A stretch of DNA of 64,000 nucleotides from a virus: the IMG/VR virus record IMGVR_UViG_3300043425_000861, one strand, 5' to 3'. The position numbers and the translations under genes are program-made. The notes below the pieces were generated by a model that was not told where the DNA came from, did not search any database, and saw nothing but the letters and a program-made list of their open reading frames with translations. Below are positions 48,637 to 64,000 of this stretch, piece by piece; positions within the stretch are counted from its first letter, which is position 1, and each line of letters starts with the position of its first letter.

Positions 48637-48853
48637 CTCCCTTTTTTTATGTCCATACATCATCATTGTAATCTAATTACAATCAACTGAAATGTCAAAC
48701 AGCTTTCAGTGTGGTATTTGTCTTACAGATAACCGGTGGACATTTCTTCACCATCAGAGTTCCCTCAAAACTTTAACATTTCTTAACAAAGATAAATTTG
48801 GTGGTTTCATATAAAGATATTACTTTTACATCATAATCAAAAACACATACACT

Positions 48854-49102
48854 ATGTCAAAGTTTCAAAAAGTTATCGGTCAAATCGGTTTTACACTTAT
48901 CGGTCTATTCGGTTTGTGTGTAGTCCTTACCATTCTTTCTTCCGACTATCGTGGAGAAGAAGAATACAATCGTTATGTTGTAATTCAAGAATTTTTATTA
49001 AATTGGTACACGGTTACAATGTGTATTGTCGGTATGTTGTTCGTATCATTCACTTGGTTTAAGTTTGAACCAAAGAGAAGGAATAGACCAACGACTTTCT
49101 AA
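48854..49102 (+). CDS. 2-TM membrane protein
   Basis: Two hydrophobic segments; own promoter. Confidence 0.75.
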   Translation: MSKFQKVIGQIGFTLIGLFGLCVVLTILSSDYRGEEEYNRYVVIQEFLLNWYTVTMCIVGMLFVSFTWFKFEPKRRNRPTTF

Positions 49103-49305
49103 AAGAAAAATTTACAAGGTTGTAATGTCAAGGTGATGTCTAACAGCTTCACCTTGATTTTTTCGTTGTCCAAATAACCGGTGGACATTTTCGGTGGTAC
49201 AGATGATGATAAAAACTTTAACACTTCTTAACAAAAATAAATTTGGTATTCTCGTATAAGGGTTATATATTTGTATATCGTTAAACAATTAAATACATTT
49301 ATCAA

Positions 49306-49512
49306 ATGGAAAATCAAGAAAACAAACTAAAAGTAAAGTTGAGTCCGTTCAAGTCCGACCTTACATTTAATGAGTGGGTGGAGAAATACAAAGTTGGTAG
49401 TGGTTATGTGGAACCGACAAAGTATTTTCAAGGTAATCCTTCGTGTGGTGTCAAACCCATAAACATTGAGGAAAACAAAAACCCCATACTCAAATTCTTC
49501 TTTAATGTATAA
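49306..49512 (+). CDS. hypothetical early protein
   Basis: Own promoter and terminator. Confidence 0.7.
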   Translation: MENQENKLKVKLSPFKSDLTFNEWVEKYKVGSGYVEPTKYFQGNPSCGVKPINIEENKNPILKFFFNV

Positions 49513-49742
49513 AATCAAAACCCTACTTCGGTAGGGTTTTTTTATGTCTAATAATTTGTATCGTAGTAAAAACAACAAACGATAAAATGTCTTCCGGTTA
49601 TTCAGGAGCTGTTTGACATTTTCCGTGGACGAAGGAAATCCAAATTTTATTTGTTAAAAAAATAATTAAAAATTTAACACAAAATAATAGGATATATGGA
49701 TTATATTGTTTTACTTTGTTCTCAAATCAAATCACACTACAA

Positions 49743-49958
49743 ATGAAAGTAATCCAATCACGAATCACTGAACAACCGAAATCGTTGTTCGACCCAATCC
49801 CAAGAGTTTATGTTACATTAGAAAATGGAGTGGAAGAATTCCTATTCGACTACTACCCCGATGAAATCAGTTTCACACCGAGTGAGTTCATTGGTTTGAC
49901 AATCGAAGAATGTAGACACCTCAAATTCAAAAAGGATAGACATTATCTGACAAGTTAA
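49743..49958 (+). CDS. hypothetical early protein
   Basis: LFDYYPDEISF..EFIGLT. Confidence 0.75.
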   Translation: MKVIQSRITEQPKSLFDPIPRVYVTLENGVEEFLFDYYPDEISFTPSEFIGLTIEECRHLKFKKDRHYLTS

Positions 49959-50198
49959 AATCAGACCCTACTTCGGTAGGGTTTTTTTATGATGAAGAAT
50001 CAGTGTTCCGAACACCGATGGTAGGATGTTCAACAGCTTCCCATAGACCAAATAACCGGTGGACATTTCTTCACCACCCGTGTCCCCAAAAAAATTTAAC
50101 ATCCTTTAACACTTTTTTAACTTCTCAAATTTGGAATATCCGAATATTACTTTTATATTTGTATTGTTAATTAATCACACACTAAAAACACTTAACAA

Positions 50199-50405
50199 AT
50201 GAAAAATTTATTTCAAACCCTATTCGGTACAACCTTTCAAAATGTAGTGGACATTGTAAGTCAAATGGACACTATTGAAAAATGTCTATTCCTTTTTTGG
50301 AGTATTTGTGTAGTAATGTTTTATTCTACATTCCTTTACATTATCTATATGGTAGGTAAGGAGTTGGTATCTAAATTAGTATTCACCCTTAAAACTTCAA
50401 AGTAA
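50199..50405 (+). CDS. small membrane protein
   Basis: Hydrophobic central helix. Confidence 0.7.
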   Translation: MKNLFQTLFGTTFQNVVDIVSQMDTIEKCLFLFWSICVVMFYSTFLYIIYMVGKELVSKLVFTLKTSK

Positions 50406-50737
50406 TGTCAAATCACATTTCAACAAAATCAAGATGGGTTTCAACCGATGGTTGGAGAGGTTATTCAGAACCGATTAATGGTATCGGTGGTTGTAACCAC
50501 ACAGGTAGTTGGTCTGATAGTCCGTGTCCAACACACGTTGTGAAGTCAGAGTTAGACGGGTTTAAAAAAATCCTACGTCAAAACAAAATTAAGTTTAAAC
50601 AATTCGTTACTCAAAGTTCCAATGTCTTTTGTCAACACGTTTACATTTTAGTACACCCTTCTGATAGGGAACGTGGATTGGAATTGAGTAAGGAATACCA
50701 ACACCGAGAGGGAATCAGATTATTCTATTCGTGTTAA
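50405..50737 (+). CDS. hypothetical early protein
   Basis: WVSTDGWRGY...SNVFC; TAATG coupling to the upstream gene. Confidence 0.75.
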   Translation: MSNHISTKSRWVSTDGWRGYSEPINGIGGCNHTGSWSDSPCPTHVVKSELDGFKKILRQNKIKFKQFVTQSSNVFCQHVYILVHPSDRERGLELSKEYQHREGIRLFYSC

Positions 50738-51054
50738 TAGTTCCTCCATATACCCCCAACCCTCATCGAGAAACCGGTGGGGGTTTTTTATTGTCTTACA
50801 TATTCCGAGTCGGTGCATCCTGAATCTGTGGAAATGTCTTACAGCTTTTAAGTGTTGTCTTACAAATAACCGGTGGACATTTTACACCTTCCAGGGTGCC
50901 CGGGTCTTAAAAAATTTTAACACTTTTTAACAAAATAAATTTGGTAGTCTCGTATAAGGGTATTACCTTTACACTATGAAAAACGAAATGAAAAACGTAT
51001 TGATTAAATGGTCACTTATTTTAGTATTATTAACAATTAAAACCTTATTAGAAA

Positions 51055-51387
51055 ATGGTAATTAAATTAACACTCCTTAATGGAAACTCGTTTTTGGTAA
51101 ACACAAACCAAGTTCAGACAATCTTCCCTAAATTTTACAAAGGGGATTATGTAACTCGTATTCAGTTCAATCAAGAGACAATGATTCAAGTTCGTGAATC
51201 GGTTGAAGAAATTTACAATCAGATTTGGAACGAAGAAAAAATTGACACACCTTTTGAATTGATAACTCGTGATGATGAAAGTTTTGATTTTAAACCAAGA
51301 CCTCAAAGTCAAAGACCTCGATACAATAATCAACAAGAGTATCGACCTCGTTATGATAGAAACTATAACACCCAAAACCATTATTAA
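51055..51387 (+). CDS. hypothetical protein (FlbD-like N-terminus)
   Basis: IKLT.LNG..F.VN...I...T.I......VRESVEEI. Confidence 0.6.
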   Translation: MVIKLTLLNGNSFLVNTNQVQTIFPKFYKGDYVTRIQFNQETMIQVRESVEEIYNQIWNEEKIDTPFELITRDDESFDFKPRPQSQRPRYNNQQEYRPRYDRNYNTQNHY

Positions 51388-51388
51388 G

Positions 51389-51532
51389 ATGAAAGAGATA
51401 ATAGATACATTCAGAGAACATTACAGAGAAGACAGAAAAGATTTTTGGGAAGTGATAATTGGTTCGATTCTCATTACATCATTCATAGTCTTTATGTTTT
51501 GGTTTGTCGGAACGTTTTGTTACGATATGTGA
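51389..51532 (+). CDS. small membrane protein
   Basis: 47 aa with a C-terminal TM. Confidence 0.6.
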   Translation: MKEIIDTFREHYREDRKDFWEVIIGSILITSFIVFMFWFVGTFCYDM

Positions 51533-51794
51533 TTAGTAGTAGTGTAGTTTAACGATGAGAAATACCCTCGATGAAAGTCGGGGGTTTTCTTTTTGGTCTC
51601 AGTCGAGTCTACAACAGGTACTGGTGAAATGTCTTACAGCTTTCGTATAACCGGTGGACATTTTCGTAGTACAGAACCTTCGGGTACTGAGTAAAAAAAA
51701 ATTAACAGATTTTAACATTCTTTTAACCACGAATATTAGGATATATGGATTATATTGTTTTACTTTGTTACATCATTAAACCATATACTACAAT

Positions 51795-52115
51795 ATGAAA
51801 AATTTAAAAGACGAAAAACAACAATTAGTAAAGAACATTAGTGAGACTAATGACTTTAAAAAGTTAGAATTCACAATCATCAGTTTGATTATGGGTTGGA
51901 CAATCGACAACACTCATCAAGACGAGTACAAGGAGTTGATTAAACTTTCAGTTGGTCGATTGAGAACTTTATCAATCATCAACGGAATTGAACATCCTCT
52001 TATGGATATGGATGTGGACACGGAAGAAGATAGAATTAAAAATTCGTTCCGTTTGTCTTTGTTACATAATGTAATAGAGAAGAAAGAACCAACATTCGAC
52101 TTCAATTTGAATTAG
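51795..52115 (+). CDS. hypothetical early protein
   Basis: Own promoter and terminator. Confidence 0.75.
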   Translation: MKNLKDEKQQLVKNISETNDFKKLEFTIISLIMGWTIDNTHQDEYKELIKLSVGRLRTLSIINGIEHPLMDMDVDTEEDRIKNSFRLSLLHNVIEKKEPTFDFNLN

Positions 52116-52369
52116 GTGTTGTAAATGAATTGTGAAACCCTCGGACTTAAATGTTCGGGGGTTTTTTATTTCCATACCTCATCATTGTAATCTTTTTACA
52201 ATCAACTGAAATGTCTTCCGGTTATTTGAGAGCTGTTTGACATTTTCCGTGGACGAAACCTTCAGAAAAAAATTAACACTTCTTAACATTCTTTTAACTA
52301 CAAAAATTTGGTATTCTCGTATAAAGATTATACATTTGTAACATCATTAACAATTAAACATACTACGAA

Positions 52370-52732
52370 ATGAAAAAAGGAATTTTAATCGATGTTCACA
52401 ATCGTGAAATCAAAGAAGTAGAAATTGAAAAAGGTATTCAATCTATCTACGACCAAATTAAGTGTGACACATTTGATTGTGTTCAAATCCACGAAGAAAA
52501 TGATGTCTATGTAGATGACAACGGACTAATGAACTTAAATGAGAAATCTATGTTCTTTAGTTACAAGGGTTATCCACAACCTTTAAGTGGGAATGGTTTG
52601 ATACTTGGTATCGACCACGAAACGGGTGAAAGTATTGATACCACTTTGACAATCGAAGAAGTTAAAAAGAATGTAACTTTCTTAACTCTATTCGAAATCC
52701 AACTGATGTCAAGATTCGGTGTTTTAAATTAG
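52370..52732 (+). CDS. DUF3846-like protein
   Basis: ILID...I...I-x-C..FD-x-V...YVDDNGL...QPLSGNGLILG. Confidence 0.7.
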   Translation: MKKGILIDVHNREIKEVEIEKGIQSIYDQIKCDTFDCVQIHEENDVYVDDNGLMNLNEKSMFFSYKGYPQPLSGNGLILGIDHETGESIDTTLTIEEVKKNVTFLTLFEIQLMSRFGVLN

Positions 52733-52969
52733 TGTTATAGTGTGGGTTAGTAAGACCACTCCGAAAGGGGTGGTTTTTTTTTGACCACAATCCATCTTGA
52801 GTCAGGACCAGGAGAAATGTTTAACAGCTTTCGAATAACCGGTGGACATTTTCCACTCTTCCGGACGACATCTGATTTTAACATATCTTAACACTTCGTT
52901 AACAAAATAAATTTGGTGGTTTCAAATAAAGGTATTACCTTTATAGTGTTAAAAAAAAACAATACTACT

Positions 52970-53356
52970 ATGGGACAATTCAGTTGGATTACACAAGACA
53001 CGAAAAGGTCAATCTCCTCGATTACTCCTTTTCAAGTAACTATGACAGACCACAAAGGAAACAAGTGGACTGAAAATGATTACGAGGGTTATGGTGAATT
53101 TGGTGGTAAGGACTTCTTTTCACTACTCTCCGAAATGAATGGTGGTAATGGTGACCGAAATCACGGGATTGATTTACGATTTAGTGGTCAACCTTATCTA
53201 TCACCGAACTTGAACGAAGACCCGACAATCGAATGGAAAGATGAAGTTCCCGATGATTGTCCAAGACAAGGTTGGGTAGAGTACGACGAAGATGGTGACG
53301 AACTCCCCGACGAAGATGAAGATGAATGGGAAGACGACGAGGAAGAAGAAGATTAA
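52970..53356 (+). CDS. hypothetical protein with acidic tail
   Basis: MGQFSW...YEGYGEFGGKDFF...DCP-x-QG. Confidence 0.8.
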   Translation: MGQFSWITQDTKRSISSITPFQVTMTDHKGNKWTENDYEGYGEFGGKDFFSLLSEMNGGNGDRNHGIDLRFSGQPYLSPNLNEDPTIEWKDEVPDDCPRQGWVEYDEDGDELPDEDEDEWEDDEEEED

Positions 53357-53590
53357 AAAAGAGACCACTCCGAAAGGGGTGGTTTTTTTTTGTGACCAAG
53401 AAGAAGATGTAACCTTACGGTTCGGGAGAAATGTCTACCGGTTATTTGGAGCTGTTGGACATTTTCGTAGTACAGAACCTTCGGGTACTGAGTAAAATCA
53501 TTAACATCTCTTAACAAAGTTTTAACTACTGATATTTGGTATTCTCATATATAGGTATTACCTTTATACCCTAATCAAACTACTACTATT

Positions 53591-53881
53591 ATGGAAAACA
53601 ATGTAAATGTATTTGAGTTCGGAGTATCGTTAGGTCAAATCGAGTTCGTTCAAAATTGGGACTTAGACCTCAACGATAATTGTTCCGAGGAGAATTGTGT
53701 TAGTGTTTTAGAAAAACTAATGGATACCAATCAATTTGAAATGGAAGAAAAAACATTTGGTATGGTTATTCGAAATGAAGAAAAGGATAACACCTACTTC
53801 GTTCTTACTCGACCTTATGTTGATGGTTGGAGTTGGGACTTTGACCACGAAGACACTATCGAAGTCGAAATCACAATCTAA
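53591..53881 (+). CDS. hypothetical acidic early protein
   Basis: Own promoter and terminator. Confidence 0.75.
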   Translation: MENNVNVFEFGVSLGQIEFVQNWDLDLNDNCSEENCVSVLEKLMDTNQFEMEEKTFGMVIRNEEKDNTYFVLTRPYVDGWSWDFDHEDTIEVEITI

Positions 53882-53981
53882 ATAGAAACCCCTCACACGA
53901 GGGGTTTTTTTATGTCAAGAATTTATCCAACGGTCGTCAGAGTGGAATGTTCAACAGCTATGTTAAAAAAAAGTTTTAAAT

Positions 53982-54027
53982 TTTAACACAAAATATTTGG
54001 ATATATGGATTATATTGTTTTACTTTG
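53982..54027 (+). promoter_or_regulatory. representative early promoter (Bacteroidota sigma-type) with upstream TTAACA
   Basis: TTTGG-atatatggattatattgtt-TTACTTTG; similar copies precede almost every cassette from 46.6 to 62.8 kb. Confidence 0.8.
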
Positions 54028-54050
54028 TGGTATCAAAAATTAGAAAAGAT

Positions 54051-54551
54051 ATGACCACGATTGACAAATTTATTGACGACCAACGAAATTTCGTACTACG
54101 AGTGTTCAAAGGTAAAAGTGAATTATCACCTATGTTGTGTATGTTGACTGAAAAGGAAGGTAAGACCTATACTTCTATGTGTCCTATACCTACTGAACTG
54201 ATGACTGATGAGGGTAAGGATATTATTAGGTACGGAATTGTTGAGAAAGTAAAAGAGTCAATAAAGAAAGATGGTCACAAACTATTGTGTGTGAATTGGA
54301 ATAGTGAAGGGTGGATGTACCAAAGTTCAAAAGAACAATTAAATGAAGTTGATGGTTACTACCGAAAGTTACCACGAACGGAAGTATTGTTAATGTCCTT
54401 TGATACGGAAGAGGGTAGTAAAATCATTACCTACGAAATCGTTAGGAAAATGTCAGTTGGGGTTGATGGACTAAATGAAGAGGTGGAAGTTGAACTTATG
54501 AAACTTGGTGAAAATTTTACAACAAAGGGTAGGTTTACAAATATGTTTTAA
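54051..54551 (+). CDS. hypothetical early protein
   Basis: SEGWM...R-x-EVL...GRF. Confidence 0.8.
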   Translation: MTTIDKFIDDQRNFVLRVFKGKSELSPMLCMLTEKEGKTYTSMCPIPTELMTDEGKDIIRYGIVEKVKESIKKDGHKLLCVNWNSEGWMYQSSKEQLNEVDGYYRKLPRTEVLLMSFDTEEGSKIITYEIVRKMSVGVDGLNEEVEVELMKLGENFTTKGRFTNMF

Positions 54552-54808
54552 TGGTTGACTCGTGTTTTTTGTTATAAAGAGGTAGGACTTTGTCTTACCT
54601 TTTTTTTGTCCACAATCCATCTTGGTTCCCGTCCTGGTAAAATGTTCAACGGCGAAAGCTGTAAGACATCCTCAGCTGTACCCTGATATGACAAGGTTGT
54701 CAAAATAATTTAACACTCTTTAACATTTTTTTAACTACAAATATTTGGATATATCAATTATATTGTTTTACTTTACACTATTAAATCACACACTTAAAAA
54801 AATTAATT

Positions 54809-55093
54809 ATGGAAAGTAGAATTGTAGTAACAAGACGTGGTGACTTCGGTCACGATTGGAACTTGATTGTTGAAACACACAATGGTATCAAGAACTTTTA
54901 TTTGGGACAAGATGTAAAATTTTGTAGTCGAGTATTAGGAATGTCACCAAGAGAAATTGTAAACGAAATCGGTACGGGTGACTTCACCAAAGAAGAAAAT
55001 CTAAAACTATTAGGTAACTTCATTAGTGAACATTTAGGATTGGTTGATGAACAAGTACAAGAATTGGAAACGTGGGAATTGTGTTGTCAGTAA
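54809..55093 (+). CDS. hypothetical early protein
   Basis: FYLGQDVKFCSRVLG. Confidence 0.75.
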   Translation: MESRIVVTRRGDFGHDWNLIVETHNGIKNFYLGQDVKFCSRVLGMSPREIVNEIGTGDFTKEENLKLLGNFISEHLGLVDEQVQELETWELCCQ

Positions 55094-55282
55094 AATCTAA
55101 ACGAAAAGACCTCAACGAAAGTTGGGGTTTTTTTATTTCATTAATAATCAATCTTTTACGAATTCAAACTTCAACTGTTACAATGTCGAACAGCTATGTT
55201 AAAAAAATAATTAAAATTTTAACATAAAATATTTGGTTATATAAATTATATTGTTTTATTTTGTATTCTAAAATTAACCACT

Positions 55283-55480
55283 ATGTTACTACCAAAGTAT
55301 GAAGAAGTCCCAATGAAATGTATCAAAGTAAGTTTTAGTGAAGACAAGTTCTATCACATATTCTTACAAGATGAAAATGATGTCAGTAGTTGTATGTCCA
55401 TAACCGATAATATGGGTTTACCACTTGACTTTAACGAATGGGATAATGTTCTACTATTTCTTAATCTTAAAACACACTAA
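55283..55480 (+). CDS. hypothetical early protein
   Basis: Follows a promoter. Confidence 0.65.
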   Translation: MLLPKYEEVPMKCIKVSFSEDKFYHIFLQDENDVSSCMSITDNMGLPLDFNEWDNVLLFLNLKTH

Positions 55481-55482
55481 AA

Positions 55483-55776
55483 ATGAAACATTTTGAAGAT
55501 GTAAAAAAGGAATTAACCAAAGGTGGAATTGATTGGGTATTAGGTACGGAAACGGGTTGGAGTGAGAACTCCTTAATCTTTGATGGGGGTGATTGTAAAA
55601 TTCTACTCTATGTCGAGGAAGATGAAAAAGGTAATTTGTCCTTAACTTATCACGACCTATTTGAAGAGGGTGAATACTCACCAATCTTTGACAACACGAA
55701 TGAAGAGACCACAACAAGTTATCGTGGTACTGATACTTCGGTTAAAGGTATGTTAAAAAACTTGGACTTAATTTAA
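55483..55776 (+). CDS. hypothetical acidic protein
   Basis: 97-aa ORF followed by a terminator. Confidence 0.7.
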   Translation: MKHFEDVKKELTKGGIDWVLGTETGWSENSLIFDGGDCKILLYVEEDEKGNLSLTYHDLFEEGEYSPIFDNTNEETTTSYRGTDTSVKGMLKNLDLI

Positions 55777-56132
55777 GTTTGTAAATCTTAAACACGACCA
55801 CTCCGAAAGGGGTGGTTTTTTTTTTGTCCAAGAAGATGTAAGGTTACAGGGGTGGGAGAAATGTTTAACAGCTTTCACACCAACAAAATAACCGGTGAAC
55901 ATTTTTTCACCCAACAGGTGTCAAAAAATTTTAACACTTCTTAACAAAGTTTTAACACAAAATATTAGGTTTATTCATTTTTATTTACGTACTTTGTATT
56001 GTTGAAATGAGGGAGATATATCAAAAAAAAATTAACATTCTTTAACATTCTTTTAACACAAAAAATTTGGTATTCTCATATAAAGATTATACATTTGTAT
56101 TGTTAAATTATTAAACACTAAAAGTTACTACT

Positions 56133-56648
56133 ATGGTAAATCAAACATTGTTAGTTGACTACGATACTATGGTATCAGTATGTCGTGGAATTACGAAAGG
56201 TCAATTCGTAAACCTATTCACTTCAACGAAAGTGAATATGAATAAGGGTGGTCGTCAGGGGTTGAATACCTACTACGAGAAAGTGATTAAACACGTAAAA
56301 GGGAATGTCCGTCCTTTGTGTGACTACGAGTTACGTATGGACAACGAGAATGAGAAACGTGGTTTACCCGAACACGAGTTGGGACAAAACAAAGTTGGTA
56401 GTCACGTGGACGAGGTTGGTTGTGTTACTCGTAACGAAAAGTTAAATCGTTACTACTTTATGTACGAGTTCTTCGACAACGTACGAGTAAAGGTTGACTA
56501 CGAGTTCGAGGGTAATTCTATCGAGAAACAACTTTTCGACCAATGGGTTATCAAGTCGACAAAGAACAACGTGAATGTTCGTCAAGTGAATATCGACAAC
56601 ATCAACGAAATCACTATCGACAAAACGAAGTACATTAGAGTAAGGTAG
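56133..56648 (+). CDS. hypothetical early protein (paralog of 47414-48022)
   Basis: See 47414; both genes have tandem double promoters. Confidence 0.8.
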   Translation: MVNQTLLVDYDTMVSVCRGITKGQFVNLFTSTKVNMNKGGRQGLNTYYEKVIKHVKGNVRPLCDYELRMDNENEKRGLPEHELGQNKVGSHVDEVGCVTRNEKLNRYYFMYEFFDNVRVKVDYEFEGNSIEKQLFDQWVIKSTKNNVNVRQVNIDNINEITIDKTKYIRVR

Positions 56649-56875
56649 GGTTAAAGTTCATAGGTGAAAGGGGGTGTAGTAATACACCCCTTTTTTTTTG
56701 ACCACAATCCATCTTGGTTCGGGACGTAATCCGAAATGTCTACCGGTTATTTGAAAGCTGTAAGACATTCCAACTCAGATGGGACGTCCTATTTTCTTAA
56801 CACTTCTATAACAAAATAAATTTGGTAGTTAAATAAAAAGGTATTACTTTTACATCATAATCAAAAACACTATTA

Positions 56876-57211
56876 ATGGAAACACTAATTATCACATCAT
56901 CATCAAATCAAGGACTTAATGATAAGATTAAGTCATACACCGAACAAGGTTATAGAGTGGTAGGTACACACCAAGTTGTAGAGACACACCACCAAAATCG
57001 TTTTCGTGGTACTCAACACGTGGATACAATTATCGAACGTGAGTATAGTATTACTATGATAAAACACCAACCTACTGATGAGGACGTACACCCATCATTA
57101 AAAGTTGGGATATACTACCGATACCGAGGGGGAGACGTCAAGATATATGATGAGGACGAAATGAGAAACGAGTTCGAGGAAAAATTATCTAACCTAATAA
57201 ACCCATTGTAA
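56876..57211 (+). CDS. hypothetical early protein
   Basis: C-terminal YDEDEMRNEFEEKL resembles the C-terminus of 58621-58974. Confidence 0.75.
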   Translation: METLIITSSSNQGLNDKIKSYTEQGYRVVGTHQVVETHHQNRFRGTQHVDTIIEREYSITMIKHQPTDEDVHPSLKVGIYYRYRGGDVKIYDEDEMRNEFEEKLSNLINPL

Positions 57212-57212
57212 T

Positions 57213-57422
57213 ATGAGTGAAGTTTATGTAATTGTCTATAAAGACACCACGTTTAATCACGAAGACACCATTGAGGGAGTGATAGAAAAAGAAAATCAAT
57301 TTTCCGAGTGGTTAATTCGACACAATAACGATAGACGTGAATTAGATGAGGACAACGACTACTTTGTGGAAGAAACCGAAGAGGACTTTCAGTTGGTACG
57401 AGTTCCATATTTCAAATCTTGA
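57213..57422 (+). CDS. hypothetical acidic protein
   Basis: 69-aa ORF. Confidence 0.7.
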   Translation: MSEVYVIVYKDTTFNHEDTIEGVIEKENQFSEWLIRHNNDRRELDEDNDYFVEETEEDFQLVRVPYFKS

Positions 57423-57551
57423 TGAGGAGATAAAATGTTAATGGAATGTCTAACAGCTTCCATTAACACTTTTTAACAATCTTTTAACGAGAAATACTTG
57501 TTTATATCGTTTATATTGTTTTACTTTGTACTTCATTAAAATCTACACAAA

Positions 57552-57803
57552 ATGAACAAAGAAAAAGTAACCCAAGTTGTTAAAGGAATGATTATCGACC
57601 GAATAACCGAAATGGTGGAAGATATGTCGAACCACGACTTTGTCGAGAATGTAATGGATAGACTCGAAAACGAAGGAGTTGTAATGGACTTTGAAAACGA
57701 AGAAGTCCAAGAAGAAATTACCGAACTTATCGGTACCCAAGTTTTACCACTACTTCACAAGATGTCGGAGTATATACTCGGTAAGGAAATTCCTATCAAG
57801 TAA
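57552..57803 (+). CDS. hypothetical acidic protein
   Basis: Own promoter and terminator. Confidence 0.7.
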   Translation: MNKEKVTQVVKGMIIDRITEMVEDMSNHDFVENVMDRLENEGVVMDFENEEVQEEITELIGTQVLPLLHKMSEYILGKEIPIK

Positions 57804-58052
57804 TTCTCAAACCGAGTTAAAAACCTCACAAGAAATTGTGGGGTTTTTTTATGTCCAAGAAATTACAACCTTGTAAATTTTCAAAAATCTTGGAATGTTC
57901 AACAGCTTTCAAATAACCGGTGAACATTTTTTACCCCAACAGGTACGAAAATTATTAACAGATTTTAACAAAACTTTTTATCAAAGTATTAGGAAATATC
58001 ATTTTTATTTATCACCTTTGTATTGTCTACTAACCAATAGACATCTACAACT

Positions 58053-58376
58053 ATGGACACATTGTTCAAATCACAAATCGAAAATACTCTTACTACCAAT
58101 GTGGAGTTTGAGTTCTCTTTGGACTTCCAAGGACAAGTTGAGTACATTGAGTCGGAGGACACCGACCAATTTTTGGAATTGGAACGAGTAGTTCTATTCC
58201 TTGTTGAAAAAGATTTAATCCCTATCAACGAGAGAACCGAGGGTGTTGTAACCATCAAAGATGGTGTTGTCGAAATCGACTACAAGACTTGTTCACAACT
58301 CGGTGAGGATTGGGGTGATGATGTTTGGGACGAACACATTACCAAAGTTTCAGTACAAGATTTGGTAGGGGAATAA
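58053..58376 (+). CDS. highly acidic protein (DNA-mimic candidate)
   Basis: Very Asp/Glu-rich 107 aa; mimic role is speculation. Confidence 0.7.
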   Translation: MDTLFKSQIENTLTTNVEFEFSLDFQGQVEYIESEDTDQFLELERVVLFLVEKDLIPINERTEGVVTIKDGVVEIDYKTCSQLGEDWGDDVWDEHITKVSVQDLVGE

Positions 58377-58409
58377 TCCCCTACTTTTTTTCATTATAAA
58401 ACTACAACT

Positions 58410-58616
58410 ATGTCAAAGTATCAATGTTTATCTCCCGATGGTTTCACGATTGAATTCGACAAGTGGACGTACCCCTCAAAAAAACAAATGATGGAGTCCT
58501 TCAACAAATGGAAAAAGAGGTACGAACAACAAGGGTATTATAGTTCCAACAACTACGGACGAATTCCATTAGACCAATTAGAAAATTATTGTACATTCAA
58601 AACCATTAAATCTTAA
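58410..58616 (+). CDS. hypothetical early protein
   Basis: LSPDGFTI...W..RY..QGYYSS..GRIPL. Confidence 0.75.
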   Translation: MSKYQCLSPDGFTIEFDKWTYPSKKQMMESFNKWKKRYEQQGYYSSNNYGRIPLDQLENYCTFKTIKS

Positions 58617-58620
58617 AACT

Positions 58621-58974
58621 ATGTTAAAAGTTAAAGACCACACGAGGTATCGTCATTTCGATTACGAAAGTGAACCAAGTACTACGTACCAACTTGGTGA
58701 TGTGTTACTCAAAAAATACGATGATGAATTAAGTTCGGAAATTGGAGTAGTAATACAAACATTCTCCGATGGTGATTTTAGAACTGATATGTGGGGTATG
58801 AGTTCATATAGTGAAGTATTACGAGCTAAACTATCTGATGTTAAAGAATATAGACCTGACCTTCTATCAGATTTAATTATTAACATAGATGTTTACTTCA
58901 CTACCGATGATAATGGTGAGATAACATTTGATGTTGAGGAAATGGAAAATGAGTTAATCCACTTGACTATGTAA
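58621..58974 (+). CDS. hypothetical protein
   Basis: EIGVVIQ...FRTDMWG; carries the first Ala codon after the GpC-free zone. Confidence 0.75.
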   Translation: MLKVKDHTRYRHFDYESEPSTTYQLGDVLLKKYDDELSSEIGVVIQTFSDGDFRTDMWGMSSYSEVLRAKLSDVKEYRPDLLSDLIINIDVYFTTDDNGEITFDVEEMENELIHLTM

Positions 58975-59352
58975 AACATTAATGATATATTTTTGTTATA
59001 GTTTAGTGTTTAGTTTGTTTGGTAGTAAGTTTAAAGGTGGATAGAAATGTCCACCTTTTTTCATTTATAACATCATCTTCACCTGGAATCCCAGGTCAGA
59101 TGTTCAACAGCTTTGTGGCCGTAAGACATTTGTCTGGTTTAGCCCGAGTCCCATTCTTCAGAATAACATATTGATTAGCAACTCCTATTTCATTTAGTGT
59201 GAAACCATTTATAGCCGTAAGACATTCAATGCAGCGCGCGCTGGTCCTGATTCCAGTGTTAAAAAAATAAATTAAATTTTAACAAAAAAACTTATCAAAA
59301 TATTTGGTTTATAAATTCTCGTGTAGTAATTTTGAATTCTAAATTAAATCGT

Positions 59353-60219
59353 ATGACAGAACAAACTATCACCACAGGTAACGAGATTACCGACATTCTC
59401 AATCAGACAGGTCTGAATTGGAATGTAAGAACAGAAGAATTACAAACCACATCAGGAATTATTATCCCTGATAAGATTGGTTTAATCCGTGATGACAACA
59501 ACACTTGTCTTGGCGTTCACTCGGGTTCGTATGTACCTTATCAGAATCAAGAGTTATTGGAATTGTTATTCCGTATCTCTCAACAAACAGGATTGAAACT
59601 TCATACAGGGGGTTCATTCAAAGGTGGTGAGAAGGTATGGTTTCAATTAAAGTCAGAAGACTTGAAGTTGTCCAACGACAGGATTGAAGGTTACATTAGT
59701 GGGTTCAACTCATTTGATGGAAGAACATCATTAGCGTTTGGTAACTCGAATGTTACAGTATCTTGTCAAAATACTTTTTGGAAAGGTTACAGAGATGTTG
59801 AAACCAAATTGAGACACTCATCAGCGATGAAACCAAAGATTGAAGAAATTTTGAGAAAGATTGATGTTCTATTACAAGAAGAACAACAAACCTTCGACAA
59901 CATTCAACGTCTTGGTAATGTTAGAATGACACAACAAGTTAAAGACTTGGTTATTCGTAGATTGTTCGACATTGAAAAGGAAGAGAGACTTGATAGTGAT
60001 GACTTATCTACTAACAAGAAAAACAAACTCTCTCGTTTCTACATTGACTTGAATGGTGAGTTACAACAAAAGGGTGATAACCTTTGGGGTTTATTTAGTG
60101 GTGTAACAAAATATACCACACACTCTATGAAGAAAGGTGATAACACGGAAGGTAAAATCTTCGGACAAGTCGGTTACAAAGAGAGACAGATTTGGGACAA
60201 CCTCGTAGAATTGGTGTAA
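59353..60219 (+). CDS. DUF932/DUF945-family protein
   Basis: GLNWNV, Y-x-P-x-QN, GSFKGGEKVW, NSFDG, VSCQNT, RH, NLWGLF-x-GVT-x-Y. Confidence 0.85.
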   Translation: MTEQTITTGNEITDILNQTGLNWNVRTEELQTTSGIIIPDKIGLIRDDNNTCLGVHSGSYVPYQNQELLELLFRISQQTGLKLHTGGSFKGGEKVWFQLKSEDLKLSNDRIEGYISGFNSFDGRTSLAFGNSNVTVSCQNTFWKGYRDVETKLRHSSAMKPKIEEILRKIDVLLQEEQQTFDNIQRLGNVRMTQQVKDLVIRRLFDIEKEERLDSDDLSTNKKNKLSRFYIDLNGELQQKGDNLWGLFSGVTKYTTHSMKKGDNTEGKIFGQVGYKERQIWDNLVELV

Positions 60220-60514
60220 GACATAATAGGTTGATGTGATTTGAAACCCTCGGACTTTTGGTTCGGGGGTTTTTTGTTTCTGTGCACTGTACCTGCACAG
60301 CACTGGAGTCAATGTTCAACGGCTTGTGGCTGTAAGACATTCACCTGCACCAGCGCTGCACTGGCGTGCTGCGTTTATCGTCGCCGTAAGACATTGGACC
60401 TGGGATTTAGCGCTGTTCTGTTCTTAACATTCTTTAACATTCTTTTAACAAAAAAAATTTGGTAGTTAAATAAAAACATATTACTTTTACATCATCATCA
60501 AAAACAACAAAGAA

Positions 60515-60733
60515 ATGATTAAATCAATCGAAGAAAAAGAAACCAAGTTAGAAATTGACTTGACAGGTCCTGACGGAAACGCGTTTGTACTATTAGGGTA
60601 CGCGAGTAGATTCTCTAAACAATTAGGTTTAGATGGGAAAACCATTCAATCAGAAATGATGAAAGGAGACTACGAACATCTCGTAGATACATTCGACAAA
60701 TATTTTGGGGAATACGTTACGTTATATCGTTAA
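60515..60733 (+). CDS. hypothetical phage protein
   Basis: IDLTGPDGNAFVLLG...M-x-GDYEHL. Confidence 0.8.
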   Translation: MIKSIEEKETKLEIDLTGPDGNAFVLLGYASRFSKQLGLDGKTIQSEMMKGDYEHLVDTFDKYFGEYVTLYR

Positions 60734-60809
60734 CAAAATTTTAACTAAAATTATTTGGCGGTTAAATAAAAAGTTATTACTTTTACATCATCATCAAAAC
60801 AACAAAGAA

Positions 60810-61061
60810 ATGTCAGAGTTAAAAACAAAAACTGATGTCCTATCACATTGGACTAAAAAATCGAAAGAGGTTTTACAGGGTAAGACCATAGTAGAAGTTC
60901 GTTATCTTAATGACGAAGAAATGGAAATGATGGGTTGGTATAAACGACCTGTGTGTTTCTTCCTTAATGATGGTACAAGTTGTATCTTGTCCTGTGATGA
61001 TGAAGGGAATGATGGTGGTGTATTATTTTATGGTAGTGATGGAGTTCTACCAACATTATAA
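60810..61061 (+). CDS. hypothetical protein
   Basis: L-x-GKTI..VRY..E....GW...S-x-DDEGNDGG. Confidence 0.75.
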   Translation: MSELKTKTDVLSHWTKKSKEVLQGKTIVEVRYLNDEEMEMMGWYKRPVCFFLNDGTSCILSCDDEGNDGGVLFYGSDGVLPTL

Positions 61062-61080
61062 ACCTTTAAATCAAAAAGAG

Positions 61081-61314
61081 ATGAGTTACCTAACATTAAG
61101 AGATTGGAGAGAAAACCACGTCAAAGTTATTTTTAAACTTGACGGAAGTAAGGTAGAGGTTAAATCAACTGATAGTGATATAACCTACTTTAAAAGTACC
61201 GATAGAAAAATTGTTCAAGAGTTTATCGACAATTCGACAAAACAACTGACAACAATCTACGAACTTAATTTCGAGAACATTCAACAAGATTTTCTAAACG
61301 TAATAAATAATTAA
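61081..61314 (+). CDS. hypothetical protein
   Basis: 77-aa ORF in an operon. Confidence 0.65.
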   Translation: MSYLTLRDWRENHVKVIFKLDGSKVEVKSTDSDITYFKSTDRKIVQEFIDNSTKQLTTIYELNFENIQQDFLNVINN

Positions 61315-61318
61315 AAAA

Positions 61319-61762
61319 ATGGGTTACACACACTATTGGAATTATACCAAACCATCAAAAGATTTTGATGATGAGTACATCAACGTACTATTAGACATCA
61401 ACCTCGGATTAAAAAATCTCGACAAGAGTATCGTATTACGAGGTGGAGACGGAACAGGTTTACCTGAATTCACAAGAGAAAGAATTTGTTTCAACGGAGA
61501 CGGACAACAAGGTTTAAACCACGAAACATTTTATTTTGATAAAGACCCTACGGACTTTACCTTTTGTAAGACAAACAATAAACCCTATGATTTTTTTGTA
61601 GGAGTTTGTTTACTCTCACTGGCGAATAGAATAACAGGGTTTGAGTTCAGTTCAGACGGAGACAATCGAGAGTGGGAACCAATTATTTTGTTCTATCAAA
61701 AGTTTATTGGTGAGATTAAACCAAGTATTTTAGAAAAATTATTAAGATTAGAAGAATTTTAA
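61319..61762 (+). CDS. hypothetical phage protein
   Basis: MGYTHYW...FNG...HETF...FCKT..KPYD...SSDG. Confidence 0.8.
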   Translation: MGYTHYWNYTKPSKDFDDEYINVLLDINLGLKNLDKSIVLRGGDGTGLPEFTRERICFNGDGQQGLNHETFYFDKDPTDFTFCKTNNKPYDFFVGVCLLSLANRITGFEFSSDGDNREWEPIILFYQKFIGEIKPSILEKLLRLEEF

Positions 61763-61864
61763 CAAAAAATATTTGGAAGTTAAATAAAATTGTATAACTT
61801 TGTAATCGTATTCATTATTCTATAACTAACTCGGGGACGGGACGAAATCCGAACAAAAATTATC

Positions 61865-62611
61865 GTGAATAAAATTCAAACAGGTAAAAAAGTGGGTGAA
61901 ATCTTTGAGACCAAAGATTACTCAATCTTCAAATTTAGAGAAGATAATCGTATCGTAAATCAAAACCACGTTAGAAAACTCTCTCAACGTATGAAAGAGA
62001 ATGGTTGGTTATCAACATCAGTAGTTACTATCAATGGTAGTGGTGAAGTTATTGACGGACAACACAGGATTAAGGGAGCGATTATCGCGGGTGTCCCTGT
62101 CCGTTACAAATGTGTGAGAGGGGCGGGTAGTGATGAAATGACATCAATGAACACACTTCAACGAAATTGGTCTCCATTTGACCACTTAAATAAATTCGTG
62201 AAGAAAGGAAATCCTAACTACATAACTTTCCAAAAGTTTACGGAAGAATTTCCAATGTTCAAATATACTGAATGTGCGATGTTGTTACAAAATAGTGTAA
62301 CATCAATCAAGAGAGATAATTTTGATAGTGGTAATTATGTTGTGAGAAACGAGAAGAAAGGTCGATTATGGGGACAACACTTGTTAGAGTTGAAACCATA
62401 CTTTGAGAAGTACTACAACAAATCAATCTTTGTGAGAGGTTTCATCAAAATCATTTCTAACAAGAAAGAGTTTGTGTTTGAAGAATTTTTACACAAAGTA
62501 AAGTTGAGACCTAATATGTTAGTTCCTTGTGGTACAACGGAACAATATATTGAAATGATTGAGAACATTTACAACTATAAGAGAAGTAATAAAGTTAATT
62601 TAAGATTTTAG
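61865..62611 (+). CDS. ParB/Srx-like N-terminal domain protein
   Basis: NR-x-V...HV-x-KL...M...GW...VIDGQHR. Confidence 0.75.
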   Translation: MNKIQTGKKVGEIFETKDYSIFKFREDNRIVNQNHVRKLSQRMKENGWLSTSVVTINGSGEVIDGQHRIKGAIIAGVPVRYKCVRGAGSDEMTSMNTLQRNWSPFDHLNKFVKKGNPNYITFQKFTEEFPMFKYTECAMLLQNSVTSIKRDNFDSGNYVVRNEKKGRLWGQHLLELKPYFEKYYNKSIFVRGFIKIISNKKEFVFEEFLHKVKLRPNMLVPCGTTEQYIEMIENIYNYKRSNKVNLRF

Positions 62612-62853
62612 TTGTAGATGATGAGTGAGAAAAGGGGGTGTAGAAATACACTCCTTTTTTTTTGTCCAAGAAGATGTAACCTTACAGGGTGGGAGGAATG
62701 TTCAACGGCTTTCAAATAACCGGTAGACATTTCTTTCCGACGCGCTGAGGAAATCTTTTAACAAAATTTTTAGAAAATAATTGGTTCAGAATTTGGAAAT
62801 ATCAATGATATAGATGTATATTTGTGAATAATTAATCATCTCAATCAAATCAA

Positions 62854-63117
62854 ATGAAAAAGAAAACACAACACACACTCTTAAAGGGTGAAGGTATCCA
62901 CCAACACACATTGTATGGGGATTTCAAAATCGGTTCTGAAACCGAAGTAGATTTTATGGAAGTGGAAGTATCCGAAGAAAGTTTACTTAAACACGAGAAA
63001 CCTAATGGTTCTTTTGGTGAACACAAGACACTAAAAATTGAACAGGGTAAGTGGGTGATGGGTAAACAAGTAGAGTACAATCCTTTTAATCAAACCATTT
63101 CAAGAGTTTGGGACTAA
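62854..63117 (+). CDS. hypothetical protein
   Basis: GEG-x-H-x-H...L-x-HE...EH....G-x-W...Q-x-EYNP. Confidence 0.75.
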   Translation: MKKKTQHTLLKGEGIHQHTLYGDFKIGSETEVDFMEVEVSEESLLKHEKPNGSFGEHKTLKIEQGKWVMGKQVEYNPFNQTISRVWD

Positions 63118-63521
63118 TGGCTAATCCACTAATTCATTCAAAATCCAGTGTAAAAAGGTGGGGTGGAAAAGTAGAAGACTACATATCCATTCACGAGTTA
63201 ATTGATAGTCCGAAGGCGACTATGAACAATAACTCATCAAGATTATTAACACATAATACTTGGTTTGCGTATCATATATGTCCGAAGATTTTTGGATATA
63301 ACATTACGAACTCTGATGGTAAGAGTGTTGATGTAGTTGATATTGCGATGTTACATATCGCAGAGGACTTCCGTATGAAGTTCGTTCCGACACCACAGGA
63401 TTACTTACAACATTTACAAGTCCAACCCTGGATGAATAATGGTGTGAAGGTTTTGGATAGTGTGGACGCCCAAAACATTGTTAAACAACTAAACGAAAAA
63501 TTACATTATGAAATCAGTTAA
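63117..63521 (+). CDS. DUF6915-like protein
   Basis: P-x-x-HS-x-SS..WGG..DY..IH...DS-x-K...H...HI-x-ED. Confidence 0.7.
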   Translation: MANPLIHSKSSVKRWGGKVEDYISIHELIDSPKATMNNNSSRLLTHNTWFAYHICPKIFGYNITNSDGKSVDVVDIAMLHIAEDFRMKFVPTPQDYLQHLQVQPWMNNGVKVLDSVDAQNIVKQLNEKLHYEIS

Positions 63522-64000
63522 AGAAGAAATGATTGACAAGTGGAAAGAACTCAATATCAAAAGTTGTAGTATGGAGTTCTCTTGTGGTGGTGATAGTATG
63601 AACGACTATTCATTCACCTTTTACACCAACGACAACAAAGAAGTTGATGGTGAAGAACTTACTGACTACTTTGAAACCGAAGTATTCAATGAGGTTGAGT
63701 TTTATGAAGTTTCTGATGGACATTACATTGGTGAGTCTGGTGTTGTTGAAATCACATTGGAAGAAGATGATGAACCATACTTTTCGTATTACAAAGATGC
63801 GAGTTCTGAATGGTCAGAGAGATTTTTCGGACAAATGAACGTACCACTAACCGATACCGAACTTTCTTTTATTAAAGAAAAGGTATTGAATATGAATGGT
63901 AGTGATTGGGGTGAACCAAATATCAACTACAAAATAGATTGTATCATTACTGATGAAGAACAGGAAATGATTAACAATTTAATTAAAAGAATTGATGATG
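63508..64000 (+). CDS. hypothetical acidic protein, runs off the window end
   Basis: Open frame from MKSVKEEMIDKW with an FSCGGDS motif. Confidence 0.7.
   Translation, partial: MKSVKEEMIDKWKELNIKSCSMEFSCGGDSMNDYSFTFYTNDNKEVDGEELTDYFETEVFNEVEFYEVSDGHYIGESGVVEITLEEDDEPYFSYYKDASSEWSERFFGQMNVPLTDTELSFIKEKVLNMNGSDWGEPNINYKIDCIITDEEQEMINNLIKRIDD

What the first reader, a model, noticed from the sequence alone, without database searches (positions are those of the whole stretch)
58826..63450. Graded edge of the zone: alanine returns almost only as GCG
Seen: after one GCT at ~58826, the Ala codons in 59353-60219, 60515-60733, 61319-61762 and 61865-62611 are rare and all read GCG (TTAGCG, TCAGCG, AACGCG, TACGCG, CTGGCG, GGAGCG, ATCGCG, GGGGCG, TGTGCG). 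GCT/GCA/GCC reappear from ~63120. Elsewhere this AT-rich genome prefers GCA/GCT. Inference: a GC overlapping a CG is tolerated first, so the most strongly avoided target is roughly DGCH. Selection also decays with distance from 46.4 kb, as expected from an entry-order or timing gradient.
Basis: partly seen in the sequence, partly recalled or inferred. Interest (0 to 1): 0.8.

Follow-up and report, generated by a model that had tools for sequence, protein, structure and literature searches.

The report
Edge of GC-free phage early genes
At the border of a phage gene block that has lost every G-then-C step, and so every alanine, alanine returns only where the GC overlaps a CG, which gives the four-letter preference (GC not preceded by C and not followed by G) of a still unknown factor that seems to act on the early messages, not on the DNA as a whole.

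Summary
All 9 alanine codons in the genes between 59.33 and 63.1 kb are GCG, against a 17% GCG share elsewhere in this phage (p = 1.4e-7). The one non-alanine GC there is also followed by G. From 63.1 to 64.9 kb (extended with L001), 4 of 5 GCA/GCT/GCC codons follow a C. After that all contexts return.

The inference that DGCH is the avoided word holds. In 46 related lineages the conserved DUF6915 gene uses either a 5' C or a 3' G (odds ratio 0.18, p = 6e-9). Which one depends on whether the preceding codon can end in C. Selection is ongoing: 2 GC-changing polymorphisms against 19.5 expected.

The decay is polar but stepwise, by transcription unit, and is also seen across the clade.

The restriction/entry-order reading is not supported. 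The purge covers coding DNA, UTRs and terminator stems (o/e 0.05-0.16). It spares the spacers between terminator and promoter (o/e 0.5-0.9, 16 of 16 lineages).

The best reading is evasion of a GC-reading factor that acts on early transcripts, most likely an endoribonuclease with MqsR-like specificity (GCU/GCA). No such enzyme was identified.

This scan had already noted GpC-free early zones on other DNA (e1-5320965, e1-5679431).

The parts
46405..59100 (+). Core GC-free zone (context for the edge). About 27 small plus-strand genes have no GC in coding DNA, UTRs or terminators and no alanine. About 25 AGCT survive, each in a palindromic element between a terminator and the next promoter, plus 3 other spacer GCs.
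58621..58974 (+). Last gene of the core zone. It carries the single in-frame GC of the zone, Ala GCT at 58825-58827 within an AGCT.
59090..59250 (.). Spacer GC island 1, after the terminator at 59036-59067 and before the promoter at about 59257-59338. It holds 13 GC of all contexts and three GCYGTAAGACAT-type half-sites.
59332..60219 (+). DUF932 gene, probable start at 59353. It has 2 Ala, both GCG, plus one GGC followed by G, and no other GC.
60276..60420 (.). Spacer GC island 2, after the DUF932 terminator (60240-60275) and before the TTAACA-box promoter at 60424-60506. It holds about 18 GC of all contexts and further GTAAGACAT half-sites.
60515..60733 (+). 72-aa gene with 2 Ala, both C-GCG (AAC GCG, TAC GCG), conserved in six strains.
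60810..61314 (+). Two small genes without alanine or GC. The GC at 60758 lies in their promoter's -33 box.
61319..61762 (+). 147-aa gene with 1 Ala, GCG. The site is polymorphic with Ser/Ile/Val among strains.
61865..62611 (+). 248-aa gene with a DGQHR motif (my ParB-like reading from the motif; no significant Pfam hit). It has 4 Ala, all GCG, against 6-17 Ala in all but its near-identical strain copy. Four conserved Ala columns are Gly here.
62690..62750 (.). Spacer element copy (AACGGCTTTC...ATAACCGGTAGACAT) plus GCGC. It marks the boundary between the strict and the relaxed edge.
62854..63117 (+). 87-aa gene with no GC, first gene of the last edge operon.
63117..63521 (+). DUF6915 gene. Ala codons are ATG-GCT (codon 2), three GCG, ATC-GCA and GAC-GCC. 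The GCA and GCC codons in this gene both follow a C.
63508..64000 (+). Gene that runs off the window (to 64155 in L001). One GCG lies within the window. The regime continues through the next gene to 64855 (GCG, C-GCA, C-GCT) and ends at a minus-strand gene.

Best explanation
The window is the end of a contig of at least 126 kb from a giant freshwater phage. The host is inferred to be Bacteroidota from the promoter type. Its array of host-promoter early genes has been recoded by selection so that the early transcripts carry no GC step.

The given stretch is the downstream edge of that recoding. Here a few alanines are kept, and they sit in the least harmful contexts. First comes GC followed by G (GCG). 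Then comes GC preceded by C (C-GCA, C-GCT, C-GCC). So the avoided word is D-G-C-H, a GC that no CG overlaps.

The purge covers coding sequence, 5' UTRs and terminator hairpins. It spares the untranscribed spacers. I therefore infer that the selecting factor reads the messages, or the act of transcribing them, not the entering duplex DNA.

The most likely factor is a short-word endoribonuclease with a GC(U/A/C) preference. It could be a host immunity or toxin RNase, or the phage's own host-shutoff RNase. The earliest messages would have to survive it until a later product neutralises it.

The grading has two causes. One is weaker selection on later transcription units. The other is that larger conserved proteins can give up alanine less easily.

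Shown: the pattern, its context rule, ongoing selection, its restriction to transcription units and its conservation. Inferred: that the factor is an RNase, whether it is of host or phage origin, and the role of timing.
For: - Context rule in the window: 9 of 9 GCG, then 4 of 5 GCH codons preceded by C. Non-alanine GCs also obey it: GGC|G and AGC|G in the window and four more in L015. So the constraint is on nucleotides, not on tRNA.
- Comparative support: L015 has 15 of 15 GCG. TGCG and CGCA/CGCT swap at homologous sites.
- In 46 lineages, 5' C and 3' G are alternatives (p = 6e-9). Ten lineages have no DGCH but 25 DGCG and 20 CGCH.
- Site by site: Ala34 follows Lys and uses GCG, 22 DGCG to 15 DGCH. 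Ala51 follows Phe and uses TTC-GCH, 29 of 44. Ala82 follows Ile and uses ATC-GCH, 27 of 46.
- Ongoing purifying selection: 160 polymorphic columns, 2 touching a GC against 19.5 expected (p = 7e-7).
- Long-term selection: 109 of 120 homologues of a core-zone protein, at 50-98% identity, are alanine-free.
- Restriction to transcription units: GC o/e is 0.07/0.12/0.08 in coding DNA, 0.10/0.16/0.00 in 3' UTR plus terminator, 0 in 5' UTR, and 0.47/0.81/0.88 in spacers, for window/L015/L013.
- Pooled over 16 lineages, o/e is 0.05 in coding DNA against 0.51 in intergenic DNA, in the same direction in 16 of 16.
- Avoidance in terminator stems fits an RNA-level cost, because loss of the 3' hairpin exposes the message. 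A block to elongation past the stop codon would be harmless.
- A minus-strand gene at 65101-65472 of the extension has o/e 0.73, between plus-strand genes at 0.20 and 0.31.
- Precedent: MqsR cuts single-stranded RNA at GCU and GCA, with minor GCC. The few GCU-free E. coli mRNAs escape it. ACA-less mRNAs are translated in MazF-expressing cells (PMC5408214, PMC4905990).
- Protein-constraint share of the grading: the DGQHR-motif gene has 4 Ala against 6-17 in all but its near-identical strain copy, with Gly at four conserved Ala columns.
Against: - DGCH is its own reverse complement. That is what a reader of duplex DNA, or protection by CpG methylation, would predict. For an RNase it would be a coincidence, which I put at roughly one in four.
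- No RNase, nuclease or inhibitor was recognised among the zone's proteins.
- No host is known, so no cognate enzyme can be named.
- MqsR cuts only single-stranded RNA. GC inside terminator stems should then be partly shielded, yet it is avoided.
- The promoters of the strict edge (TTAACA boxes at 60424-60434 and 60730) are of the same class as those of the core zone. Expression class alone does not explain the step from the core zone to the edge.
- In the window's core zone the spacers hold little GC beyond one AGCT per element, 3 others in about 2 kb.
- Terminators and promoters were placed by simple rules, not by transcript data.
Confidence: 0.45

Rival explanations
1. A reader of duplex DNA or of transcription-exposed DNA, not an RNase. 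The factor recognises GC in DNA but matters only where host RNA polymerase must pass. It could be an Alc-like elongation blocker used for host shutoff, or a site-specific DNA modification at GC that hinders the host polymerase. It could also be a deaminase or nuclease that attacks DNA opened by transcription. CpG methylation of the phage DNA would then explain why a GC overlapping a CG is exempt.
For: The avoided word is strictly self-complementary. The 5' C and 3' G rescues are used about equally across lineages, 20 CGCH to 25 DGCG in the ten DGCH-free lineages. That is what hemi-methylation of either strand of a GC by a CpG methylase would give. The restriction of the purge to transcription units is compatible with this reading. 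T4 Alc, from my own knowledge, is a precedent for a phage factor that stops host polymerase on DNA of a given chemistry.
Against: GC is also avoided in 3' UTRs and terminator stems, where a block to elongation would cost nothing. No DNA methyltransferase or DNA-modification enzyme was found in the 64-kb window; the only methyltransferase hit is of the sugar O-methyl type. The rest of the genome could not be searched. Factors of this kind with two-base specificity are not known.
Confidence: 0.2
2. The zone is the first DNA to enter the cell. It avoids the site of a host restriction-type nuclease that cuts duplex DNA at DGCH. Selection fades with entry order because anti-restriction proteins are made before later DNA arrives.
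For: The purge is polar from the strand-switch point at 46.4 kb, in the window and in relatives. The principle is established: T5-like phages are restricted only through sites in their first-step-transfer DNA (PMC10644984), and Murciavirus only through sites in the leading region (PMC12455610). The word is palindromic, like Type II sites.
Against: Spacers inside the zone carry GC in all contexts, DGCH included. The window has about 25 AGCT and two islands with TGCA, AGCA, GGCT, GGCC and AGCC. L015 has 61 GC in 1.9 kb of spacers. Intergenic o/e exceeds coding o/e in 16 of 16 lineages. A nuclease that cuts at this word would cut there. The regime changes coincide with transcription-unit boundaries. 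No enzyme with DGCH or plain GC specificity is known to me among bacterial restriction systems.
Confidence: 0.1
3. A translational cause. Early proteins avoid alanine, or use only GCG, because of tRNA-Ala supply or a tRNA-directed defence. The dinucleotide pattern would be a by-product.
For: Nearly all surviving GCs are alanine codons. The phage carries many tRNA genes.
Against: GC is equally absent from other codons (AGC, TGC, GGC, CGC), from codon junctions, from UTRs and from terminators. The few non-alanine GCs obey the same flank rule. The base before the codon matters, and no tRNA reads that base.
Confidence: 0.03
4. A mutational footprint, for example context-specific deamination, or the decaying edge of a horizontally acquired GC-free block, without selection on context.
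For: AC and GT are somewhat raised in the zone, at 1.32 and 1.20 against 0.98 and 1.04.
Against: The lost alanine is not mainly replaced by Val or Thr; Glu rises most. GC-creating polymorphisms are about ten times rarer than expected among six strains. In an AT-rich genome, neutral regain of alanine would give GCA and GCT, not GCG. The state is stable across relatives whose orthologous proteins are only 47-86% identical.
Confidence: 0.02

Closest known systems
Cleavage-word-free mRNAs that escape mRNA interferases (MqsR: GCU and GCA; MazF: ACA; PemK: UAH)
   Same: A two- to three-letter word is missing from whole messages, UTRs included, so they survive an RNase that cuts almost every other mRNA. 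MqsR's order of preference (GCU, then GCA, minor GCC, no GCG reported) matches GCG being the first context tolerated here (PMC5408214, PMC4905990).
   Different: No RNase has been identified here. The word also depends on the 5' neighbour (not C). About 35 consecutive phage genes are affected, at the cost of all alanine. Known cases are single cellular genes or engineered constructs. MqsR spares double-stranded RNA, whereas terminator stems here also avoid GC.
Site-free first-entering DNA: T5/BF23 first-step-transfer region and the Murciavirus leading region
   Same: Both are polar, position-dependent avoidance of a recognition word in a block of small early genes at one end of the gene map, with weaker avoidance elsewhere (PMC10644984, PMC12455610).
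   Different: In those phages the word is a 4-13-bp restriction site and must be absent from all the DNA of the region. Here the word is 2-4 bases and is absent only from transcription units, while spacers keep it. Two-step entry and the position of the genome end are not known for this phage.
Restriction-site (short palindrome) avoidance in phage genomes, for example GATC-free Staphylococcus phage K (my own knowledge)
   Same: Selection has removed a short self-complementary word from a virus genome.
   Different: That avoidance is genome-wide, concerns words of 4-6 bp, and has no effect on amino-acid composition. It shows no context hierarchy and no coding-versus-spacer contrast.
T4 Alc, a phage factor that stops host RNA polymerase on cytosine-containing DNA (my own knowledge)
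   Same: It is a model for a constraint that applies only to DNA that host polymerase must transcribe, while the phage's own templates are exempt.
   Different: Alc distinguishes modified from unmodified cytosine, not a sequence word. No homologue was looked for or found here.

Membership tests
Restriction-site avoidance in first-injected DNA (T5 FST type) | The recognition word is absent from all DNA of the leading region, whether transcribed or not | tested here: not met
   Spacers hold GC at o/e 0.47-0.88 against 0.07-0.12 in genes. The contrast holds in 16 of 16 lineages. Islands at 59110-59240 and 60284-60412 contain DGCH words.
Restriction-site avoidance in first-injected DNA (T5 FST type) | Avoidance is polar from one physical end of the genome | tested here: inconclusive
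   The purge is polar from the strand switch at 46.4 kb. The contig runs through that point, and genome termini cannot be read from assemblies.
Restriction-site avoidance in first-injected DNA (T5 FST type) | A cognate host nuclease with that recognition site exists | not testable with these tools
   The host is unknown, no genome is held for the window, and no restriction-enzyme database is available.
mRNA-interferase word avoidance (MqsR/MazF type) | The word is absent from the whole transcript, including UTRs, but not from untranscribed DNA | tested here: met
   5' UTR o/e is 0, 3' UTR plus terminator is 0-0.16, and spacers are 0.47-0.88. Transcript ends were inferred from terminators and -7 boxes, not measured.
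mRNA-interferase word avoidance (MqsR/MazF type) | Avoidance is specific to the message strand | tested here: inconclusive
   GC and DGCH are self-complementary, so strand cannot be read from them. The 5' C and 3' G rescues are used about equally. One lineage (L017) lacks GC followed by T or C while AGC is common, but lineages differ.
mRNA-interferase word avoidance (MqsR/MazF type) | A cognate RNase is present in host or phage | not tested
   No RNase family was hit among the zone proteins scanned. Host genomes were not available.
Protection of GC by overlapping CpG methylation | The phage DNA is CpG-methylated, or a CpG methyltransferase gene is present | tested here: inconclusive
   No DNA methyltransferase was found among the window ORFs scanned. 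More than 100 kb of the genome is outside the window and could not be searched. Base modification cannot be read from assemblies.

The most novel reading that the evidence does not exclude
Freshwater hosts of these phages, inferred to be Bacteroidota, or the phages themselves, deploy an undescribed endoribonuclease that cuts RNA at GC steps not overlapped by CG. A whole clade of giant phages has recoded its immediate-early transcriptome into a GC-free, alanine-free form to stay expressible in its presence. The graded edge would then be a natural read-out of the enzyme's four-base preference.
Probability: 0.4. Interest if true: 0.9.

Novelty: new variant of a known kind. Interest (0 to 1): 0.78.

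Why it matters
Avoidance of a recognition word is a known viral strategy. Here the word is only two to four bases long, and removing it deletes one of the twenty amino acids from about 27 consecutive proteins.

The edge studied here turns that oddity into a specification. The unknown factor tolerates GCG and CGC but not D-GC-H. Its footprint also follows transcripts, not DNA position. This gives a concrete assay target: cleavage of GC-containing RNA in extracts of candidate hosts. It also gives a search image for the enzyme.

The data form a natural experiment on how proteins cope without alanine. In the DGQHR-motif protein, conserved alanines are replaced by glycine.

If the factor is an RNase, it would be a new example of immunity, or of host shutoff, acting on short RNA words. 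It would also give a reason why early-gene arrays of large phages are so distinct in composition.

Tried and rejected
- No whole genome is held for the window. The records behind L016, L006 and L001 cannot be searched. A genome-wide search for methyltransferases, nucleases or RNases was therefore impossible.
- The cultured-phage collection has no near match to 44-64 kb. IMG/VR gave only one small relative.
- A regular expression for Bacteroidota-type promoters was too permissive to define expression classes outside the zone. Only the TTAACA-box repeat was specific, at 46.5-60.7 kb.
- Pfam and PHROGs scans of zone and flanking proteins gave no nuclease, RNase or DNA methyltransferase.
- I first read the data as avoidance of GCH on the message strand only, because C-preceded alanines in the strict edge and in L015 are still GCG. 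The 46-lineage set overturned this: CGCH is used about as often as DGCG.
- GC-poor genes elsewhere in the genome do not share the GCG preference; their context mix equals that of GC-rich genes. The edge rule is not a genome-wide codon habit.
- Relatives L010, L011 and L014 carry homologous arrays with little or no purge. The trait is specific to some lineages.
- Literature searches for a published description of GC-free or alanine-free phage early genes found none in the library.

Full report
**What the window is.** It carries 15 tRNA genes, a tmRNA gene, glycosyltransferases and peptidoglycan hydrolases. Earlier notes of this scan place it at the end of a phage contig of at least 126 kb.

- Identical or ~95% identical DNA is present in independent JGI, ENA and Logan assemblies of lake and estuary samples.
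- I extended the window by 13.4 kb with L001 (identical in its overlap with the window) and L006 (joined through its overlap with L001).
- From 46.6 kb onward, small plus-strand genes each have a host-type promoter (TTG-type -33 box, TAnnTTTG -7 box) and an intrinsic terminator. The Bacteroidota host is inferred from that promoter type and was not tested.

**Check of the observation.** The GC dinucleotide is expected 25-35 times per kb. It occurs 1-4 times per kb from 46 to 59 kb, and almost every time as AGCT.

- All genes from 46641 to 58616 lack alanine. ORF 58621-58974 has one GCT.
- Outside the zone the usage is GCA 326, GCT 184, GCG 119, GCC 59. Nine of nine GCG therefore has p = 1.4e-7.
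- Other four-fold codon families keep their usual 7-17% G-ending share in the edge.
- The only non-alanine GCs in the edge's coding DNA are GGC at 59513 and AGC at 64148. Each is followed by a G from the next codon.

**Anatomy of the edge.** Four regimes follow one another.

1. 46.4-59.1 kb: no GC in any gene, UTR or terminator.
2. 59.33-63.1 kb: coding GC only as GCG.
3. 63.1-64.86 kb, one operon starting at the promoter near 62.8 kb: GCG, plus GCA/GCT/GCC that are preceded by C in 4 of 5 cases (background 12.5%, p = 1e-3).
4. Beyond a minus-strand gene at 65.1 kb: all contexts, o/e 0.3-1.2.

The steps coincide with transcription-unit boundaries. The decay is polar but not monotonic. Genes with o/e 0.0-0.3 recur at 70-75 kb and at scattered sites to the left. 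Those genes have the ordinary context mix, 72% DGCH and 17-19% GCG.

**Is it selection?**

- Six strain variants keep GCG at every alanine site of the strict edge, while the base before the codon varies between A and G.
- Among 160 polymorphic columns in that coding DNA, only 2 create or destroy a GC, against 19.5 expected (p = 7e-7).
- A core-zone protein (47414-48022) has 159 metagenomic homologues. Of the best 120, at 50-98% identity, 109 have no alanine.
- The lost alanine is spread over Glu, Val, Thr, Asp and Gln, not over the products of C-to-T change alone.
- A mutational origin is therefore rejected.

**The context rule.** The comparative data support this.

- In L015, whose orthologous proteins are 47-86% identical to the window's, 15 of 15 alanines in the equivalent genes are GCG. 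Three further out-of-frame GCs there are followed by G.
- Homologous alanine sites in the window, L015 and L017 switch between T-GCG and C-GCA or C-GCT.
- I then fetched 80 loci carrying the conserved DUF6915 gene (window 63117-63521). They fall into 46 lineages at 97% DNA identity.
- In that gene, a 5' C and a 3' G behave as alternatives. Counts are DGCG 124, CGCH 81, CGCG 12, DGCH 150, with Fisher odds ratio 0.18 and p = 6e-9. The window's background gives an odds ratio of about 0.74.
- Ten lineages have no DGCH at all, with 25 DGCG, 20 CGCH and 5 CGCG.
- The choice follows what the preceding codon allows:

| Site | Preceding residue | Counts |
|---|---|---|
| Ala34 | Lys (cannot end in C) | DGCG 22, DGCH 15 |
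| Ala51 | Phe | CGCH 29, DGCG 7, CGCG 3, DGCH 5 |
| Ala82 | Ile | CGCH 27, DGCG 6, CGCG 2, DGCH 11 |

- Pooled over all genes of these loci, the DGCH share falls from 0.69 to 0.52 as genes become more GC-depleted.
- A GC is therefore tolerated when a CG overlaps it on either side.

**Where the purge applies.** This is the result that moves the interpretation.

- In every intergenic region of the zone, the surviving GCs lie after the terminator's T-run and before the promoter.
- I split intergenic DNA by simple rules. GC o/e by class, for window / L015 / L013:

| DNA class | Window | L015 | L013 |
|---|---|---|---|
| Coding | 0.07 | 0.12 | 0.08 |
| 3' UTR plus terminator | 0.10 | 0.16 | 0.00 |
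| 5' UTR | 0 | 0 | 0 |
| Spacer (terminator to -35) | 0.47 | 0.81 | 0.88 |

- The two GC islands in the given stretch (59110-59240 and 60284-60412) are such spacers. They hold TGCA, AGCA, GGCT, GGCC and AGCC.
- Across 16 lineages with strongly depleted neighbouring genes, intergenic o/e is 0.51 against 0.05 in the genes. The direction is the same in 16 of 16.
- A nuclease that cuts duplex DNA at this word would cut these spacers. The restriction and entry-order model is therefore disfavoured, although its general principle is well documented for T5-like phages and Murciavirus.

**What acts on transcription units?**

- An RNA-level reader fits best. GC-rich terminator stems are built without a single GC step. 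That makes sense if cleavage there would strip the protective 3' hairpin. It makes no sense for a block to elongation beyond the stop codon.
- Short-word endoribonucleases are common in bacteria. MqsR cuts GCU and GCA, with minor GCC. The few GCU-free mRNAs of E. coli escape it. ACA-less messages are translated in MazF-expressing cells. The order GCG first matches that preference.
- Against this, DGCH is self-complementary and both flanks are used about equally. That is the signature expected of a duplex reader, or of protection by CpG methylation.
- No RNase or inhibitor was recognised in the zone.
- I could not look for a CpG methyltransferase outside the window.
- I give the RNA reading 0.45, a transcription-coupled DNA-level reader 0.2, and classical restriction with entry order 0.1.

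**Why the edge is graded.**

- Clade-wide, plus-strand genes 5-10 kb upstream of DUF6915 have o/e 0.26-0.29. The value rises to 0.46 just upstream, 0.59 at DUF6915 and about 0.6 beyond. The lowest DGCH share is at DUF6915.
- The length of the fully purged part varies: about 2 kb in L010, 6 kb in L013, 9 kb in L015 and 12.7 kb here. It starts at or near the array's first genes where that start is covered (window, L013, L015). That fits a timing or order effect.
- The promoters of the strict edge are of the same class as those of the core, so protein constraint also contributes. The DGQHR-motif protein keeps 4 alanines where all but its near-identical strain copy have 6-17. It keeps the one invariant alanine and has glycine at four conserved alanine columns. 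DUF932 keeps one largely conserved alanine.

**Novelty.** No published description was found in the library. This scan had already noted GpC-free, alanine-free early zones in other giant freshwater phages and in other mobile elements. It had also noted relatives whose early genes lack other short words. New here are the context hierarchy, its either-flank rule across 46 lineages, and the restriction of the purge to transcription units.

Noticed in passing
window 39-2643 and 7953-8343: The phage carries 15 tRNA genes and a tmRNA gene with tag peptide GNVYNNMEVAGLLATSKVAA. A 178-aa gene at 1572-2108, between the tRNA arrays, has a single GC and no alanine.
   Followed up: no
window 59110-59240 and 60284-60412: The two GC islands are clusters of half-sites of the spacer palindrome (GCYGTAAGACAT / ATGTYYAACRGC). 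GC sits at the inner end of each half-site.
   Followed up: partly
L015 8865-19945; L013 9844-18411: Relatives have different spacer palindromes (L015 TTTGGC...GCCAAA; L013 GGCT...AGCC). In both, GC again sits at the inner ends of the arms, always between terminator and promoter.
   Followed up: partly
window 1572-2108, 15560-15808, 27883-28110, 33634-34095; extension 69.7-74.7 kb (L006 about 5850-10850): Genes far from the zone have 0-1 GC or o/e 0.1-0.3, with no GCG preference. GC is depleted genome-wide (o/e 0.65), and 82% of coding GCs are in-frame alanine codons.
   Followed up: partly
window 61865-62611: In the DGQHR-motif protein, four alanine columns that are 65-91% conserved among orthologues are glycine in this lineage. 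Only the invariant alanine column is kept in all.
   Followed up: yes
L045, L038, L033, L066 (orthologues or paralogues of window 61865-62611): In these lineages alanine is mostly C-GCT, for example 9 of 17 in L045. The 5' C solution dominates there, whereas the window lineage prefers GCG. In L017, GC is followed almost only by A or G.
   Followed up: partly
L004 13552-14895; L010 5396-6661 and 9217-9462: IS605 OrfB/TnpB (Cas12f1-like) genes are inserted in or next to the early arrays of relatives.
   Followed up: no
extension 65101-65472 (L001 13783-14154, minus strand): A minus-strand gene between depleted plus-strand genes has near-normal GC (o/e 0.73) in all contexts. It marks the sharp end of the GCG regime.
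   Followed up: partly
window 5138-7538, 17694-24482, 36025-36771, 40504-41130: A sugar-handling set: several glycosyltransferases, a UDP-galactopyranose-mutase-like protein, a dehydrogenase, a PfkB kinase domain, a TylF/CmcI-type O-methyltransferase and a metallophosphoesterase. Whether they modify virion proteins, DNA or host surface is open.
   Followed up: no
window 46641-47012: The first gene of the array has an RNA-polymerase alpha C-terminal-domain-like region (Pfam PF03118, E = 8e-7).
   Followed up: no
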